Source: Minisyncoccota bacterium (GTDB taxonomy: Bacteria; Patescibacteriota; Minisyncoccia; Phycocordibacterales; UBA12088). Taken from it: a DNA stretch of 64,000 nucleotides. A program made the translations under genes and the position numbers. The stretch is from the NCBI GenBank assembly GCA_041920275.1, contig JAYRSE010000007.1, positions 20,517-84,516 on the forward strand, read 5' to 3'. Each line of letters starts with the position of its first letter. The stretch's first letter is position 1. The notes below the pieces were generated by a model that saw nothing but the letters and a program-made list of their open reading frames with translations, did not search any database and was not told the origin of the DNA. This document shows positions 8,571 to 50,551 of this stretch, one piece after another.

Positions 8571-9499
8571 AACATGAGAAAAAGACCGAGCGCGATAAAT
8601 GGAATGGAGATCGCTTTGTGTACGATCTCTTCCACGGAAAGGTTCTCGCCCGCGTCTTTCGAAAGAGCCCTGCCGCAACACACGCTCACACCGAGCAGAA
8701 AGAGGTACTGCACACCCCCGAGTGCCTGCACGAGTGCCACATCTCCATGCTCGATCGCCTTGAGGATGATCAAGCTTGCAAGGCCCGCGAGAAGCTTGTT
8801 ACCAACGACAAAAAACCCATCGCGCATGCTCGCACGTTTGGTGTGTCCGATAATGTTCTCGTAGTACTCCGGAACGAGGAGCATTGACAGTGCAACCCCC
8901 ACGATCGCAAGGCGAGACCAGAAGAATGCGGTGTCAAAGTTGGTGGCATCAAAGAGCGCCTTGATCGCGATGTGGTGGATGCCGTACATGAGACCGGCAT
9001 GAGTTGCGGAAAGCATCGTATGCTTGGTGAAGCGGAAACGAGAGACGATGATCGTGCCGACGACGAGCAAACCGAAGCCGAGCAAGAAATTGCCCGAAAG
9101 CATTCCGTCCAAAAAGAAGTACGAGAGCAGCAGGGTGAAAAAGGCGTTCAAACCACCCACGACCGGCGCCACATCGGACGCGTCGCTCTTTTGCAGTGCG
9201 TGAAAAAATGACACGAGCGCCGTGAAGAAGGAGTAACCGGCCGTGATGGACAGCGCGAACACGAGGAGTGATGGCGCTTCGACATTACTGAACGAAGGAA
9301 TGGACAGGCCGTCGATCGGGACTTTGAGCCAGCTGAAGAAAAAGACAACGATGGAACCAGAGGACAAGATGCTGATCCAGAACGAGTACGAGAGCGGGCG
9401 CAGTGCGACCGTATTGCTCGTGATCACGTACTTATCCACAAGCGCCACGAGCGCCAAAAGCAGTTGTCCCGCGATCGCGAGTCCGAGCCAGAGGTCCAT
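8564..9499 (-). CDS. multi-pass membrane protein (about 10 TM), function unknown
   Basis: Hydrophobic segments throughout. The ORF-track N-terminus MTSIISLLWRRGWLGYNTR is translated from the REP repeat, so the start was moved to MDLWLGLAIAG. Confidence 0.5.
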   Translation of the reverse strand: MDLWLGLAIAGQLLLALVALVDKYVITSNTVALRPLSYSFWISILSSGSIVVFFFSWLKVPIDGLSIPSFSNVEAPSLLVFALSITAGYSFFTALVSFFHALQKSDASDVAPVVGGLNAFFTLLLSYFFLDGMLSGNFLLGFGLLVVGTIIVSRFRFTKHTMLSATHAGLMYGIHHIAIKALFDATNFDTAFFWSRLAIVGVALSMLLVPEYYENIIGHTKRASMRDGFFVVGNKLLAGLASLIILKAIEHGDVALVQALGGVQYLFLLGVSVCCGRALSKDAGENLSVEEIVHKAISIPFIALGLFLMFL

Positions 9500-9542
9500 G
9501 CGAGTATTGTACCCGAGCCACCCCCTCCTCCACAAAAGACTG

Positions 9543-9567
9543 ATGATTGAAGTCAACCTCCAATCAT
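9543..9567 (+). repeat. REP-like 25-nt hairpin ATGATTGAAGTCAACCTCCAATCAT, copy 1
   Basis: Identical 25-mer also at 47344 (same orientation) and as its reverse complement at 9901 and 10426. The stem ATGATTG/CAATCAT is imperfect. Confidence 0.8.
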
Positions 9568-9704
9568 TTTTTATACACCTCCCCTGCTTGACTTAGGATA
9601 CTACGTTAATCAACATAATATAGAGTGACTGATTTCCTAGTAGTTGAATAATTTAATTGCGTTGCATAGTTCTGACCGAGTGCTCACTTAAAAACAAAGA
9701 ATAT

Positions 9705-10418
9705 ATGAACCGAGTAACTTGCGCCACCGACGAAACATACCACGTATTCAATCGCGGCGTAGACAAGAGAGAAATCTTTTTAACAGACGAAGAACGCATG
9801 TACTTCATCCATCTGCTCTATGTACTCAACGACGTCCATTCCACCTACAACATTCATCGCCATTTTATACAGCATGCAGAACACAACCTGATCAATGGAT
9901 ATGATTGGAGGTTGACTTCAATCATATCCAAACGAGAAACTTTGGTGGACATACTTGCGTTTGTACTCATGCCAAACCATTTTCATCTCATGTTGACCCA
10001 GCGAAGCGAGAATGGTATCTCAGCATTTATGCACCGGCTTGGCACAGGGTTTACCAACTATTTTAATCAGGCACACGAAAGAAGCGGTGCCCTGTTCCAA
10101 GGAACCTACAAACGGGTGCACGTATCCTCTCCAGAATTTTATAATTACCTACCACACTACATACACTTAAACCCCCTGTCAATCGTGGGCACAAAAGAAA
10201 AAACCGCACCGGAGAACATTCGAGCCCTCCTCTCGTACAGATGGAGCAGTTTCCCAGACTACATGGGCAAGAAAAACTTTCCTTCGGTCATCAACACATC
10301 CGCCATACTGAAGTTACCCGATAATACACACGGGTATCGAGAAAGCATACTCAAATACATTGAACCCTCTCCACTCAACTATGCGCCTGAAAAAACAGCG
10401 CTTATCGACTATGATTGA
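9705..10418 (+). CDS. IS200/IS605-like HuH tyrosine transposase (REP-associated tyrosine transposase, RAYT; COG1943-type)
   Basis: YHVFNRGVDKREIF N-motif. HuH motif LMPNHFHLML. Conserved C-terminal block FQGTYKRVHV. AT-rich compared with its flanks. Bracketed by inverted REP copies. Confidence 0.8.
   Translation: MNRVTCATDETYHVFNRGVDKREIFLTDEERMYFIHLLYVLNDVHSTYNIHRHFIQHAEHNLINGYDWRLTSIISKRETLVDILAFVLMPNHFHLMLTQRSENGISAFMHRLGTGFTNYFNQAHERSGALFQGTYKRVHVSSPEFYNYLPHYIHLNPLSIVGTKEKTAPENIRALLSYRWSSFPDYMGKKNFPSVINTSAILKLPDNTHGYRESILKYIEPSPLNYAPEKTALIDYD
9897..9929 (-). repeat. REP copy 2, inside the RAYT coding sequence and in frame, with an extended 33-nt palindrome GGAT...ATCC
   Basis: Reverse-complement 25-mer at 9901-9925 plus 4-bp flanking complementarity. 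Encodes GYDWRLTSIIS within the RAYT ORF. Confidence 0.75.
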
Positions 10419-11662
10419 ATGGGTGATGATTGGAGGTTGACTTCAATCATGCGAGAAGTGATAAGGTCGCGATAGACATAGGCGGAGGGGCGAATGGTGC
10501 GTACGAGCGTGTCGAAGTCGACCTCCACAAGCCCGAAGCGCTTGTCGAAGCCGTGTGCCCACTCGTAGTTGTCGAGAAGCGACCAGTACATGAAGCCGTG
10601 CACGTCGACACCATGTTCGATCGCCCGCTCGATACCCTGCACCGTTTTTCGTATGTAATCCGCACGAAAGCGGTCATGTGCATCCGCACAGCCGCACTCC
10701 TCCACGATGACCGGTTTTCCATACCGCTTCACCGCCATGAGCGCATCGTAGATCTTTTCGGGGCGCGCGTCCCACCCCATGTCGGTTTTTGGATGCACCT
10801 CATGGTCGTCGAAGTCGGTATAGAAGTAATAGTTCAAACCGAGCGTATCACACTCGCGCACCACCCGCTTCAAAAAGCGGTGGTTGTTGTTCCACATCAT
10901 GAAGCGCGCCTTGAGCTTGCCCCACCACCTGCGCCCGGTGAACACGTGCACCTGAAAGGTGATGCCGACGTCGACCGTTGGCGCCTCGGCCTTAATGGCA
11001 CGGTAGGCGCACACGTGTGCATGGGCGAGCGTGTTTGCGAGGGTGAAAAATTTGATGATGCCGAACCAATCGCGCACGGCGCCGCGCGAAAGTTCCGCAT
11101 CGCTCGGGATACGCGCGAGATCCGTAAGCGGAAACCGATGGAACGGTGGAAAGGTGCCACGCACCCAGCCGTTTATCACCGTACTGTACGGCTCGTTGAG
11201 CGTGGTGAAATACTGTGCGTGGGTACCGAGCTTGGACACCACGTGCCCACAGTACCGCGCGAACACCTCGGGAAAATCCTTTCGTTCGATGCCACCACGT
11301 TGCGAAAGCCAGAGCGGCAACGTCCAGTGCCAGAGCGTCACCACCGGCTCGAGGCCGCGCTCTCGAAGCGCACGGAGGACCTCGCGATAGTGCTCGATCG
11401 CGCTCTCGTTGAACACCCCTTCTTCCGGCTCGATACGTGCCCACTCGATAGAAAAGCGATGCGCGTTGTGCCCCAACGCTTGTGCGATATCGAAGTCTTC
11501 ACGAAAGCGCTCGAAGTGCCCGCACGCCCGCCCGCACACGGGCACCTTGCCTTCGCGTGCCGCCTGCGCCCAATCATTGTTTTCTATCCCACCCTCCACC
11601 TGGAAAGATGCCGTAGCTGCGCCCCAAAGGAATTTGTTTGAAACACCCACACCCTTGTTCAT
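10409..11662 (-). CDS. GH1 beta-glucosidase / 6-phospho-beta-glucosidase family
   Basis: FLWGAATASFQVEGG N-terminal signature. TLNEPY acid/base motif. VIVEECG nucleophile region. Start at MNKGVGVSNKF. The last about 13 aa (MIEVNLQSSPIQS) are REP-derived. Confidence 0.85.
   Translation of the reverse strand: MNKGVGVSNKFLWGAATASFQVEGGIENNDWAQAAREGKVPVCGRACGHFERFREDFDIAQALGHNAHRFSIEWARIEPEEGVFNESAIEHYREVLRALRERGLEPVVTLWHWTLPLWLSQRGGIERKDFPEVFARYCGHVVSKLGTHAQYFTTLNEPYSTVINGWVRGTFPPFHRFPLTDLARIPSDAELSRGAVRDWFGIIKFFTLANTLAHAHVCAYRAIKAEAPTVDVGITFQVHVFTGRRWWGKLKARFMMWNNNHRFLKRVVRECDTLGLNYYFYTDFDDHEVHPKTDMGWDARPEKIYDALMAVKRYGKPVIVEECGCADAHDRFRADYIRKTVQGIERAIEHGVDVHGFMYWSLLDNYEWAHGFDKRFGLVEVDFDTLVRTIRPSAYVYRDLITSRMIEVNLQSSPIQS
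10426..10450 (-). repeat. REP copy 3 (reverse complement), preceded by the half-repeat ATGATTGAA at 10411-10419
   Basis: Exact reverse-complement 25-mer. The RAYT stop codon TGA (10416-10418) lies in the half-repeat. Confidence 0.8.
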
Positions 11663-47307: not shown

Positions 47308-47345
47308 AACAGAGGCGGGCGAATCGCCCGCCTCTGTTCGTTCAT
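47308..47345 (+). terminator. hairpin terminator after the 46869-47288 gene
   Basis: AACAGAGGCGGGCG-AATC-GCCCGCCTCTGTT. Perfect 13-bp stem. T-tract weak. Confidence 0.55.
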
Positions 47346-47368
47346 GATTGAAGTCAACCTCCAATCAT
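47344..47368 (+). repeat. solo REP copy 4, followed by partial repeat CCAATCAT (47369-47376)
   Basis: Exact 25-mer, same orientation as copy 1. Confidence 0.8.
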
Positions 47369-47529
47369 CCAATCATGGTGTGTTGGGGACTCGCAAAAGC
47401 AAGGAGGAGCCGCGCGGCGGTTCCGTTCGCTCTCGCCACACCACGAGGTGCAAAACGGTAGCGGAGCGACACAGCATCCATGGGTCACTCCGTTCAGTGT
47501 CGACACTGCGCACAATGAAATACTAGTAT

Positions 47530-47556
47530 TAATTACTGTACTAATTACAGTAATTA
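47530..47556. promoter_or_regulatory. AT-rich perfect inverted repeat TAATTACTGTA-CTAAT-TACAGTAATTA
   Basis: 11-bp arms, 5-nt spacer, in a convergent intergenic region. Contains CTGT-N7-ACAG. Confidence 0.3.
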
Positions 47557-47603
47557 TATCGAGACGTCGGTAGTGTCTGCTCGAAACGAATAGCACGAGA
47601 ACC

Positions 47604-50144: not shown

Positions 50145-50389
50145 CATTGCATCGATTGTACCATGTGTACCCCTCGACGCCAGTTGACATACCACATGCG
50201 TAGACTTATATACACTCGCTTTCACGCCGGTCACCGGTCGGTCGATTCACGGTCCATCCGCCTCACAAGGAACACGGTTGCGCATGGTGTTCAGATCGGT
50301 AGTACATCACAAAGATACCACCTCGCGAAAGATCGCGCACTCCCTCCGCATAAACATGATGCAGATTGCCCATGATCCACATATGTTCC

Positions 50390-50434
50390 ATGACCACGAA
50401 ACAAGCCGCTGGAGGCGGCTTGTTTCGTGGTCAT
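50390..50434. terminator. 20-bp perfect-stem hairpin ATGACCACGAAACAAGCCGC-TGGAG-GCGGCTTGTTTCGTGGTCAT
   Basis: Lies 10 nt downstream of the minus-strand KA-rich gene stop and upstream of secA. No clean U-tract on either side. Confidence 0.45.
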
Positions 50435-50443
50435 GAGAGAAGA

Positions 50444-50551
50444 CTATTTCTTCTTTGCAGCCTTCTTTGCTGCGGGCTTCTTTGCCGCCGTCTTCTTTGC
50501 TGCGGGCTTCTTGGCTGCAACCTTCTTTACCGCCTTTTTCTTTGCTGGCAT
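50444..50551 (-). CDS. 35-aa Lys/Ala-rich histone H1-like basic micro-protein
   Basis: MPAKKKAVKKVAAKKPAAKKTAAKKPAAKKAAKKK with KKPAAKK repeats. Confidence 0.45.
   Translation of the reverse strand: MPAKKKAVKKVAAKKPAAKKTAAKKPAAKKAAKKK

What the first reader, a model, noticed from the sequence alone, without database searches (positions are those of the whole stretch)
9543..10450. RAYT (IS200-like HuH transposase) gene bracketed by inverted 25-nt REP hairpins
The transposase (HuH motif NHFHLML, YHVFNRG N-motif) is AT-rich. It is flanked at 9543-9567 and 10426-10450 by exact inverted copies of ATGATTGAAGTCAACCTCCAATCAT, an imperfect hairpin. This is the canonical RAYT/REP or IS200/IS605-end organisation. 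A half-repeat ATGATTGAA supplies the transposase stop codon.
Basis: partly seen in the sequence, partly recalled or inferred. Interest (0 to 1): 0.6.

Follow-up and report, generated by a model that had tools for sequence, protein, structure and literature searches.

The report
Hairpin-flanked domesticated transposase with internal hairpin
This is a long-resident, transposase-derived gene (a RAYT) in a Patescibacteria genome, sitting between two copies of its own 25-base DNA hairpin.

Summary
The exact 25-mer lies at 9543-9567 (+) and 10426-10450 (-), around a 237-aa HUH/Tyr (Y1) gene at 9705-10418.

- One is inside the gene, in frame, at 9901-9925.
- One is intergenic, at 47344-47368.

The protein carries the motifs of REP-associated tyrosine transposases (NHFH, YIHLNP). 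Its predicted fold best matches E. coli RAYT bound to a REP hairpin (4ER8).

The gene is not a hopping IS:
- Relatives with 88%, 74% and 47% protein identity hold it at the same EamA|GH1 site.
- dN/dS is about 0.1.

The hairpins co-evolve. In the 47% relative, three stem pairs are changed on both sides in all three copies.

Across 66 related loci, 47 share an exact 14-mer or longer between their own flanks and one of three fixed sites inside the gene. Only 2.3% of mismatched gene/flank pairs do.

In-frame REPs inside tnpA(REP) were already described, but for subclass 2.4 and as unique to it (Quentin et al. 2018). This family has subclass-2.1-like motifs, and no REP was reported for that subclass.

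Verdict: a new variant of a known kind. The role of the internal copy is unresolved.

The parts
9543..9567 (+). Upstream (left) copy of the 25-nt hairpin. It lies 138 nt before the RAYT ATG and 44 nt upstream of the divergent EamA start.
   Evidence: Exact match and fold. The copy is conserved in orthologs L004 (0 mismatches) and L006 (1 mismatch) in the same orientation.
9568..9704 (+). AT-rich leader between the left hairpin and the start codon. It presumably holds the promoter and RBS; this is not shown.
   Evidence: GC is 0.38-0.40. TTGACT is conserved in L004. The promoter scan is not above chance.
9705..10418 (+). RAYT-type Y1 HUH gene, 237 aa. The HuH motif N91-H92-F93-H94 is at 9975-9986. 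The catalytic Tyr152, in YIHLNP, is at 10158-10160. The WSS tail motif is at residues 180-182.
   Evidence: dN/dS is 0.13 and 0.10 against orthologs.
9896..9930 (-). In-frame intragenic hairpin. The exact 25-mer is at 9901-9925, and the stem is extended by 5 bp on each side. It encodes residues 66-74 (YDWRLTSII).
   Evidence: -12.3 kcal/mol, z = -5.9. The low-confidence segment of the AF2 model, residues 64-73 (pLDDT < 50), largely coincides with this peptide. The copy is 25/25 identical in L006 although adjacent 30-nt windows match at only 13-16 positions. In L004 the stem extension carries a compensatory change.
10411..10419 (+). Half-repeat ATGATTGAA, which contains the RAYT stop codon.
   Evidence: Seen directly in the sequence. 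It is partly conserved in L004 and L006 and absent in L091. Its significance is uncertain.
10426..10450 (-). Downstream (right) copy of the hairpin, 8 nt after the RAYT stop. It is read through by the convergent GH1 ORF and supplies part of that ORF's last 13 codons.
   Evidence: It shares 27 nt with the 47344 copy. The synteny break in L089 falls inside it.
47344..47368 (+). Dispersed copy of the hairpin between convergent genes. It follows a terminator-like hairpin and is followed by a duplicated CCAATCAT at 47369-47376.

Best explanation
The locus is a REPtron: a vertically inherited, domesticated Y1 HUH enzyme (RAYT / TnpA-REP class 2) together with its own cognate hairpin repeats.

Inferred by homology to E. 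coli TnpA-REP and IS608 TnpA:
- The protein binds the 25-nt hairpin when the DNA is single-stranded.
- It cuts next to the hairpin, using H92/H94 to bind the metal ion and Tyr152 as the nucleophile, and it rejoins the DNA.
- This activity copies or renews hairpins, mostly close to its own gene and occasionally elsewhere, as at 47344.

Shown here:
- One copy sits in frame inside the gene, and the low-confidence, probably exposed segment of the model (residues 64-73) largely coincides with its peptide (residues 66-74).
- The three local copies are kept matched to one another over long evolutionary time.
- The same layout recurs across a large family that is mostly from Patescibacteria.

Not shown: what the internal copy is for. 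The most economical reading is that it is a tolerated product of cis-biased hairpin proliferation and is kept uniform with the flank copies.
For: Enzyme identity:
- Pfam Y1_Tnp scores above its cutoff.
- The motifs NHFH, LFQG, YIHLNP and WSS are invariant in 112 homologs.
- The AF2 model has pLDDT 83.8, and its best PDB match is 4ER8_A (E = 1.4e-6), followed by IS608 and ISDra2 TnpA.

Vertical inheritance:
- The exact protein is found only in the EamA|GH1 context, on 4 contigs.
- Orthologs at 88%, 74% and 47% identity occupy the same site.
- dN/dS is 0.10-0.13, with dS up to 1.58.
- The gene's GC3 tracks the host's GC3.

Hairpins are cognate to the gene:
- The 25-mer has 4 exact copies against 0 expected.
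- In 47 of 66 loci, an exact 14-mer or longer is shared between the gene and its own +-150-nt flanks, against 2.3% of 4290 non-cognate pairs.
- Window versus L091: three stem pairs are changed on both sides in all three copies.
- Each locus has 2-7 copies within 300 nt of the gene, but only 12 distal copies occur in 628 kb.

Selection acts on the nucleic acid:
- The hairpin is read in different codon phases in different lineages (21, 9 and 1 loci).
- It is 25/25 identical in L006 within the least conserved part of the gene.
- The stem extension in L004 carries a compensatory change.

Precedent: in-frame REPs inside tnpA-REP are described for subclass 2.4 (PMC6006769). REPs clustered around tnpA are described in Marinomonas (PMC8266576).
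Against: - No biochemical activity is shown.
- There is no GTAG-type tetranucleotide next to the hairpin.
- The NCBIfam REP_Tyr_transpos score of 43.9 is below the cutoff of 80.
- Only one dispersed copy occurs in 64 kb. The genome-wide count could not be made, because the 25-mer is absent from the JGI metagenome collection.
- The orientation of the copies is not conserved between loci, or even between the orthologs in the window and L091. A strand-specific mechanism like that of IS608 therefore does not map on simply.
- The gene stays 0.09-0.20 lower in GC3 than its neighbours in all four lineages, which is unexplained.
Confidence: 0.82

Rival explanations
1. The internal hairpin is a functional cis element, not a tolerated passenger. 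It could be a site where the RAYT binds its own gene or mRNA to limit its expression. It could be a protected master copy that keeps the hairpin and enzyme inherited together. It could be one arm of a RAYT-driven inversion or deletion switch, since the left and internal copies are 25-bp inverted repeats 333 nt apart. This rival concerns only the role of the internal copy and is compatible with the REPtron reading.
For: - The position is fixed across proteins only 35-47% identical. Site 1 centres lie 48-106 nt before the HuH motif (median 63), and 48 of 66 loci have a copy at one of three sites at K = 12.
- The copy is retained at the same codon phase in the window and in L091, and it has changed in step with the flank copies.
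- It is 25/25 identical in L006 at saturated dS.
- In L004 the internal copy changed G.T to G-C, and its 5-bp stem extension changed on both sides from TGGAT/ATCCA to TGGGT/ACCCA.
- Linker length is the same with or without a detectable copy (72 against 70.5 aa, p = 0.12). This argues against repeated fresh insertions.
Against: - There is no expression or binding data.
- Internal stems are not systematically longer than flank stems (16 loci longer, 26 shorter).
- About a quarter of loci show no internal copy.
- The authors who described in-gene REPs in subclass 2.4 judged them to be peripheral and probably neutral.
- No inverted or deleted variant was seen in the four independent assemblies of this locus.
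Confidence: 0.3
2. The cassette from 9543 to 10450 is an autonomous IS200/IS605-like insertion sequence. It inserted between EamA and GH1 and can still move as a unit.
For: - The layout is hairpin, gene, hairpin, and the cassette is AT-rich in a GC-rich genome.
- A relative has an empty site, with GH1 followed by 72 nt and then EamA, and no hairpin (L090).
- One family member has two identical tandem cassettes (L016).
- The predicted fold also matches IS608 and ISDra2 TnpA.
Against: - The Tyr motif is Y---NP, not Y---Q (classification).
- NCBIfam IS200 scores 14.7 against a cutoff of 55.
- There is no tnpB, and only one copy in the window.
- The gene holds the same site in lineages with dS up to 1.58 and in a relative with 47% protein identity.
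- The left and right hairpins are inverted relative to each other rather than co-oriented.
- What is dispersed is the hairpin alone, not the cassette.
Confidence: 0.07
3. The hairpins are ordinary host signals, such as terminators or protein-binding sites, that happen to lie near the gene and have nothing to do with the enzyme.
For: - The left copy is followed by T5 and is called terminator-like on the minus strand.
- The 47344 copy and the right copy both lie between convergent genes.
Against: - A copy lies inside the coding sequence.
- Each RAYT lineage has its own hairpin sequence, matched between gene and flanks in 47 of 66 loci against 2.3% of non-cognate pairs.
- The relative with the empty site has no hairpin.
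- There is no Rfam match.
Confidence: 0.03

Closest known systems
REPtron of E. coli: TnpA-REP / RayT (subclass 2.2, PDB 4ER8) with its REP/BIME sequences
   Same: - HUH/Y1 fold; 4ER8 is the best structural match.
- Y---NP tyrosine motif.
- Single-copy, vertically inherited gene.
- Cognate imperfect hairpins flank the gene in inverted orientation.
   Different: - No GTAG tetranucleotide at the foot of the hairpin.
- Few dispersed copies: one in 64 kb here, and about 0.2 per 10 kb across the family, against hundreds in E. coli.
- A C-terminal tail of about 77 aa.
- One hairpin lies inside the gene.
- The NCBIfam equivalog cutoff is not met.
TnpA-REP subclass 2.4 (Bertels group 4) with REPs inserted in frame in the tnpA-REP gene (Quentin, Siguier, Chandler and Fichant 2018, PMC6006769)
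   Same: - A cognate REP lies inside the RAYT gene without breaking the frame, in a region modelled as peripheral.
- REPs also flank the gene.
   Different: [quoted passage not shown] Here the sites are before HuH (the window's copy), just after the Y motif, or near the C-terminus.
- The 2.4 motifs are WQ and YIxNNP, with a HuH-Y distance of about 88 aa, a length of about 194 aa and no tail. Here the motifs are FQ and YIHLNP, the distance is 60 aa, the length is 237 aa and there is a WSS tail.
- The taxa are Cyanobacteria and Bacteroidetes for 2.4, against mostly Patescibacteria here.
TnpA-REP subclass 2.1 (Bertels group 1; the TIRYT proteins of Di Nocera et al.)
   Same: - The motif signature NH[YF]H, FQ, Y[IV]HLNP and an SS-containing tail matches.
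- The median length of 238 aa matches this protein.
- Flanking 16-mers have a low copy number, about 12 per replicon for group 1.
   Different: - Subclass 2.1 was reported to have no REP-like sequences near the gene, and to be associated with terminal inverted repeats and HTH-like C-terminal domains.
- Here clear cognate hairpins flank and enter the gene, and Pfam finds no HTH domain.
- Formal assignment with the authors' profiles was not possible.
IS200/IS605 insertion sequences (IS608, ISDra2 TnpA)
   Same: - Same catalytic fold.
- Hairpins near the ends of the gene cassette.
- ssDNA chemistry, by inference.
   Different: - Those enzymes have a Y---Q motif.
- They are multi-copy and mobile, and are often paired with tnpB.
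- Their end hairpins lie on the same strand.
- None of these features holds here.
Rickettsia palindromic elements and other REPs found in frame inside host genes (Di Nocera et al. 2013, PMC3733652)
   Same: A palindromic repeat is translated as part of a protein without destroying it.
   Different: Those insertions lie in unrelated host genes. Here the host gene is the enzyme presumed to act on the repeat, and the position recurs across a whole family.

Membership tests
RAYT / TnpA-REP (TnpAY1 class 2) | Y1_Tnp (IS200-like) HUH domain with a HuH motif | tested here: met
   Pfam PF01797 scores 29 bits against a cutoff of 23. N91, H92 and H94 are invariant in 112 sequences. The predicted fold matches 4ER8.
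RAYT / TnpA-REP (TnpAY1 class 2) | Tyrosine motif Y---NP, the class 2 signature in PMC6006769 | tested here: met
   The motif is YIHLNP. Y152, H154 and N156 are invariant, and P157 is conserved in at least 90% of sequences. The signature itself is quoted.
RAYT / TnpA-REP (TnpAY1 class 2) | Gene flanked by cognate hairpin repeats (REPtron arrangement) | tested here: met
   Exact copies lie at 9543 and 10426. The arrangement is conserved in orthologs and holds family-wide.
RAYT / TnpA-REP (TnpAY1 class 2) | Single-copy, vertically inherited gene | tested here: met
   There is one copy in the window. The gene holds the same site in relatives at 88%, 74% and 47% identity, and dN/dS is about 0.1. 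Whole-genome copy number was not tested.
RAYT / TnpA-REP (TnpAY1 class 2) | Repeat dispersed at high copy number through the genome | tested here: inconclusive
   There is one distal copy in 64 kb, and 12 distal copies in 628 kb across family loci. The source genome is not available, and the 25-mer is absent from the JGI metagenomes.
RAYT / TnpA-REP (TnpAY1 class 2) | Conserved GTAG (or similar) tetranucleotide 5' of the hairpin foot | tested here: not met
   The four copies share nothing beyond the 25-mer, except that two copies share 27 nt. There is no GTAG.
RAYT / TnpA-REP (TnpAY1 class 2) | NCBIfam equivalog NF047646 at its curated cutoff | tested here: not met
   The score is 43.9 bits against a cutoff of 80. 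The model appears to be centred on E. coli-type proteins, so this protein is a distant relative.
RAYT / TnpA-REP (TnpAY1 class 2) | Site-specific ssDNA cleavage and rejoining at the hairpin | not testable with these tools
   This needs purified protein and oligonucleotides.
TnpA-REP subclass 2.4 | REP inserted in frame inside the tnpA-REP gene | tested here: met
   The copy at 9901-9925 is in frame. The feature holds family-wide.
TnpA-REP subclass 2.4 | Motifs WQ and YIxNNP, HuH-Y spacing of about 88 aa, no C-terminal extension | tested here: not met
   This protein has LFQG and YIHLNP, a spacing of 60 aa and a 77-aa tail with WSS (against the table).
TnpA-REP subclass 2.1 (Bertels group 1) | Motifs NH[YF]H, FQ, Y[IV]HLNP, an SS tail, and a length of about 238 aa | tested here: met
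   Assessed by inspecting the alignment against the published table. The authors' HMM profiles were not available.
TnpA-REP subclass 2.1 (Bertels group 1) | No REP near the gene, and an HTH-like distal C-terminal domain | tested here: not met
   Cognate hairpins are present. Pfam finds no HTH domain at E <= 0.1.
IS200/IS605 insertion sequence | TnpA with a Y---Q motif that meets NF033573 | tested here: not met
   The motif is YIHLNP. NF033573 scores 14.7 bits against a cutoff of 55.
IS200/IS605 insertion sequence | Several near-identical copies of the whole element, often with tnpB | tested here: not met
   There is one gene in the window, the neighbours are EamA and GH1, and the locus is syntenic in diverged relatives. 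Whole-genome copy number was not available.

The most novel reading that the evidence does not exclude
The in-frame hairpin is a selected part of the system. It would be a copy of the enzyme's own target, kept inside the enzyme's gene and held identical to the flank copies, through which the RAYT senses or limits itself. The route could be binding or cutting its own gene or transcript, or RAYT-driven inversion or deletion between the local copies. Alternatively, the copy could guarantee that enzyme and hairpin are always inherited together. This would make a large Patescibacteria RAYT clade a natural model for self-targeting control in domesticated HUH enzymes.
Probability: 0.25. Interest if true: 0.7.

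Novelty: new variant of a known kind. Interest (0 to 1): 0.45.

Why it matters
RAYTs and their REP hairpins are a leading example of a transposase that has settled into bacterial genomes, yet how the hairpins are copied and maintained is still unknown.

This locus extends the 'hairpin inside its own transposase gene' arrangement, which was previously called unique to one subclass. It now also applies to a large, mostly Patescibacteria clade whose motifs match a subclass reported to have no REPs.

The locus also offers a clean natural series:
- The same site is occupied in relatives at 88%, 74% and 47% protein identity.
- One relative has an empty site.
- One relative has a synteny break inside the hairpin.
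- All three local copies change in step.

This series makes concerted hairpin-enzyme co-evolution, and any self-regulation, directly testable with short oligonucleotides and one small protein.

Tried and rejected
1. Genome-wide count of the 25-mer. Exact scans of the JGI metagenome collection with the 25-mer and with a 23-nt core found nothing. The source species was not among the 80 genome-contig loci returned.
2. 'Internal hairpins have longer stems than flank copies.' Not supported: 16 loci longer, 26 shorter, 8 equal, Wilcoxon p = 0.07.
3. 'The hairpin is a simple 8-10 codon insertion, so loci with it have longer linkers.' Not supported: 72 against 70.5 aa, p = 0.12. At site 2 the segment is shorter when the hairpin is present. 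This corrects my earlier notebook remark.
4. A fixed orientation pattern of upstream, internal and downstream copies. The pattern varies between loci, and even between the orthologous window and L091 loci. The window, L004 and L006 all share +,-,-.
5. A profile search of PDB sequences gave no hit at E <= 0.01. The link to 4ER8 came only from the fold search.
6. An Rfam scan of 9000-11000 gave only chance-level hits. The promoter and terminator scan was not above shuffles.
7. A conserved tetranucleotide next to the hairpin, as GTAG is in classical REPs. None was found in the four window copies.
8. Formal assignment to the Quentin or Bertels subclasses. Their profiles are not available here, so the comparison rests on motifs only.
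Full report
**1. What is in the sequence**

The 25-mer ATGATTGAAGTCAACCTCCAATCAT occurs exactly four times in the window, against none expected in shuffles. The copies are at:
- 9543-9567 (+)
- 9901-9925 (-)
- 10426-10450 (-)
- 47344-47368 (+)

It is the only exact multi-copy repeat in the 64 kb. As single-stranded DNA it folds into a 10-bp stem with a 5-nt loop. The stem has one A.C mismatch, which reads as G.T on the other strand. The energies are -3.4 and -5.5 kcal/mol.

The first and third copies bracket an ORF whose likely start is the ATG at 9705 and whose stop is at 10416-10418 (237 aa). The ORF and its leader are AT-rich, at GC 0.38-0.47 against 0.55-0.64 around them. The 9-mer ATGATTGAA at 10411-10419 does include the stop codon.

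It encodes residues 66-74 (YDWRLTSII). There the palindrome is 5 bp longer on each side (9896-9930; -12.3 kcal/mol, z = -5.9).

The fourth copy lies between convergent genes, just after a terminator-like hairpin, and is followed by a duplicated CCAATCAT.

**2. What the protein is**

- Pfam Y1_Tnp scores 29 bits against a cutoff of 23.
- NCBIfam's RAYT equivalog scores 43.9 against a cutoff of 80, and its IS200 model 14.7 against 55.
- A search found 2253 homologs, almost all unnamed or labelled 'transposase', and mostly from Patescibacteria MAGs.
- In an alignment of 112 homologs, the invariant residues include H13, N16, R17, N91, H92, H94, Y152, H154, N156, W180 and S182.
- The motifs are NHFH, LFQG, YIHLNP and WSS.
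- The AlphaFold model is confident (pLDDT 83.8, pTM 0.81). Its best PDB match is 4ER8_A, E. coli RAYT bound to a REP hairpin (E = 1.4e-6), followed by IS608 and ISDra2 TnpA.
- The low-confidence segment at residues 64-73, the only one away from the C-terminal tail, largely coincides with the hairpin-encoded peptide.

**3. It is resident, not hopping**

The exact protein is found on four contigs from different runs, always between an EamA-type membrane protein and a GH1 glycosidase. Orthologs with 88% identity (P0001; L004, L005) and 74% identity (P0002; L006-L008) sit at the same place.

dN/dS is 0.13 and 0.10, with dS of 0.43 and 1.58.

I traced GH1 homologs to extend the series. Three further loci were informative:
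- **L091** (GH1 71% identical) has a RAYT of 47% identity at the same site and on the same relative strand.
- **L090** (GH1 74% identical) has an empty site. GH1 is followed by 72 nt and then EamA, with no hairpin.
- **L089** (GH1 84% identical) loses homology to the window at window position 10430. That point is inside the right hairpin: 21 of its 25 nt are kept, and unrelated genes follow.

The RAYT's GC3 tracks the host's in all four lineages but stays 0.09-0.20 lower.

**4. The hairpins belong to the gene and evolve with it**

- L004 and L006 keep the three copies in the same +,-,- orientation, with 0-2 changes each.
- The internal copy is 25/25 identical between the window and L006. The adjacent 30-nt windows match at only 13-16 positions, and synonymous sites are saturated.
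- In L004 the internal copy has changed G.T to G-C. Its 5-bp stem extension has changed on both sides, from TGGAT/ATCCA to TGGGT/ACCCA.
- In L091 all three copies read ATGGTAGAGGTT[G/C]AACCTCTACCAT. Compared with the window, stem pairs 4-22, 6-20 and 9-17 are changed on both sides in every copy. The internal copy sits at the same codon phase.

This is concerted evolution of the three copies.

**5. The layout holds across the family**

I analysed 80 related loci from species-representative genomes, with 34-46% protein identity to the window. In these loci, exact words shared between a gene and its own +-150-nt flanks pile up at three places:
- Site 1 is 60-120 nt before the HuH motif. The window's internal copy is here.
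- Site 2 is 207-248 nt after the HuH motif, just past the Tyr motif.
- Site 3 is near the C-terminus.

With words of 14 nt or more, 47 of 66 loci show such a match: 34 at site 1, 13 at site 2 and 6 at site 3. Only 2.3% of 4290 mismatched gene/flank pairs do.

Perfect stems of 8 bp or more occur at site 1 in 22 of 73 genes, and of 10 bp or more at site 2 in 10 of 73. In the rest of the gene, 2 genes have stems of 8 bp or more and none has 10 bp or more.

The hairpins share an apical core (GARGT ... ACYTC) but differ in the lower stem, with several pair types per position. Positions that were not used to select the hairpins still pair in 68-87% of loci, against 26-39% when the partner is slid.

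The centre of the hairpin falls in codon phase 0 in 21 loci, phase 1 in 9 and phase 2 in 1. The same DNA structure is therefore translated as EVGL/EVQP-type or as RGSTS/WRLTS-type peptides. The constraint is on the nucleic acid, not on the peptide.

Copies are concentrated at the gene, with 2-7 within 300 nt. They are rare elsewhere, with 12 in 628 kb.

**6. Comparison with what is known**

Quentin, Siguier, Chandler and Fichant (2018, PMC6006769) divide the TnpAY1 family into 12 subclasses.
[quoted passage not shown] They call this a unique feature of that subclass and suggest that the insertions are peripheral and harmless.
- The present protein does not fit 2.4, which has WQ, YIxNNP, a HuH-Y spacing of about 88 aa, a length of about 194 aa and no tail.
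- Its motifs and length match their subclass 2.1 (NH[YF]H, FQ, Y[IV]HLNP, SS tail, median 238 aa). For that subclass they found no REP near the gene.
- Bertels et al. (2017, PMC5581495) report about 12 genome-wide occurrences of flanking 16-mers for the corresponding group 1. This agrees with the low density seen here.
- Corneloup et al. (2021, PMC8266576) describe REPs clustered around tnpA-REP in Marinomonas, and the central role of GTAG in classical REPs. No such tetranucleotide accompanies the hairpin here.

I found no paper linking RAYTs to Patescibacteria.

**7. How it most likely works**

Shown:
- a conserved, selected Y1 HUH gene at a stable locus
- cognate hairpins at both ends, one inside the gene and at least one elsewhere
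- concerted change of the local copies
- the low-confidence segment of the protein model largely coinciding with the internal hairpin's peptide

Inferred from E. coli TnpA-REP and IS608:
- The enzyme binds the folded hairpin on single-stranded DNA.
- It cuts beside the hairpin through Tyr152 and rejoins the DNA.
- This activity, acting mostly in cis, makes and renews copies near the gene.

Unresolved: whether the internal copy is only tolerated or has a role such as self-limitation, co-inheritance or a switch. Its fixed position, its retention at saturated dS and the compensatory changes lean towards maintenance. Two simple predictions of special status failed: internal stems are not longer than flank stems, and linkers are not longer when a hairpin is present.

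**8. Verdict**

The locus is a REPtron-type RAYT, not an active IS.

The new elements are:
- the in-frame internal hairpin in a subclass and phylum where it had not been described
- three recurrent in-gene sites
- an orthologous series that shows concerted evolution

This is a new variant of a known kind and is of moderate interest.

Noticed in passing
L089:7213-7237 (aligned to window 10430-10450): In a relative whose GH1 is 84% identical, synteny with the window ends inside the right hairpin. Twenty-one of its 25 nt are kept (GTGATTGAAGTCAACCTCCAA|GTAG), and unrelated T2SSE and response-regulator genes follow. This suggests that the hairpin can be a rearrangement breakpoint. It is a single case.
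   Followed up: partly
window 10409-10450 (minus strand): The convergent GH1 ORF reads through the right hairpin and ends ...SRMIEVNLQSSPIQS. Relatives without the hairpin end about 10 residues earlier with unrelated tails. The hairpin has therefore replaced the natural C-terminus and stop codon of the neighbouring gene.
   Followed up: partly
window 9705-10418 and orthologs in L004, L006 and L091: The RAYT gene's GC3 follows the host's GC3 but is 0.09-0.20 lower than both neighbours in all four lineages. This holds despite saturated synonymous divergence at a stable locus. The persistent AT offset is unexplained.
   Followed up: partly
window 47343-47376: The dispersed hairpin copy shares 27 nt, not just 25, with the right-end copy. 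It is followed directly by a second CCAATCAT, a duplicate of its last 8 nt. The right-end copy has a comparable partial repeat 6 nt away, at 10411-10419.
   Followed up: no
L018, L021, L023, L028, L031, L034, L037, L040, L046, L050, L056, L075, L076, L080-L083: Other family members carry the in-frame hairpin at a second site just after the YIHLNP motif, or at a third site near the C-terminus. A few carry two internal copies.
   Followed up: partly
L016:1288-2990: Two identical RAYT cassettes lie in tandem, each with flanking and internal hairpins. This is the only sign of recent duplication of the whole cassette in the set.
   Followed up: no
window 10514-10527: GAAGTCGACCTCCA inside GH1 is 13/14 complementary to the hairpin core. 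It encodes the conserved GH1 motif VEVDF, so the match is probably coincidental.
   Followed up: no
window 50389-50549: A perfect 21-bp inverted repeat with a 5-nt loop lies at 50389-50435. It is followed by six tandem 15-nt units (TTCTTTGCTGCGGGC-like) at 50448-50549. The units probably lie in a coding sequence.
   Followed up: no
window 47520-47570: An AT-rich palindromic stretch (TAATTACTGTACTAATTACAGTAATTA) lies in the intergenic region just past the 3' end of secA.
   Followed up: no
L009-L088 record titles: Family members appear on contigs binned as Nitrospirota, Planctomycetia, Spirochaetia, Omnitrophota, Nanoarchaeota and others, besides Patescibacteria. It was not examined whether this reflects real spread or mis-binning.
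   Followed up: no
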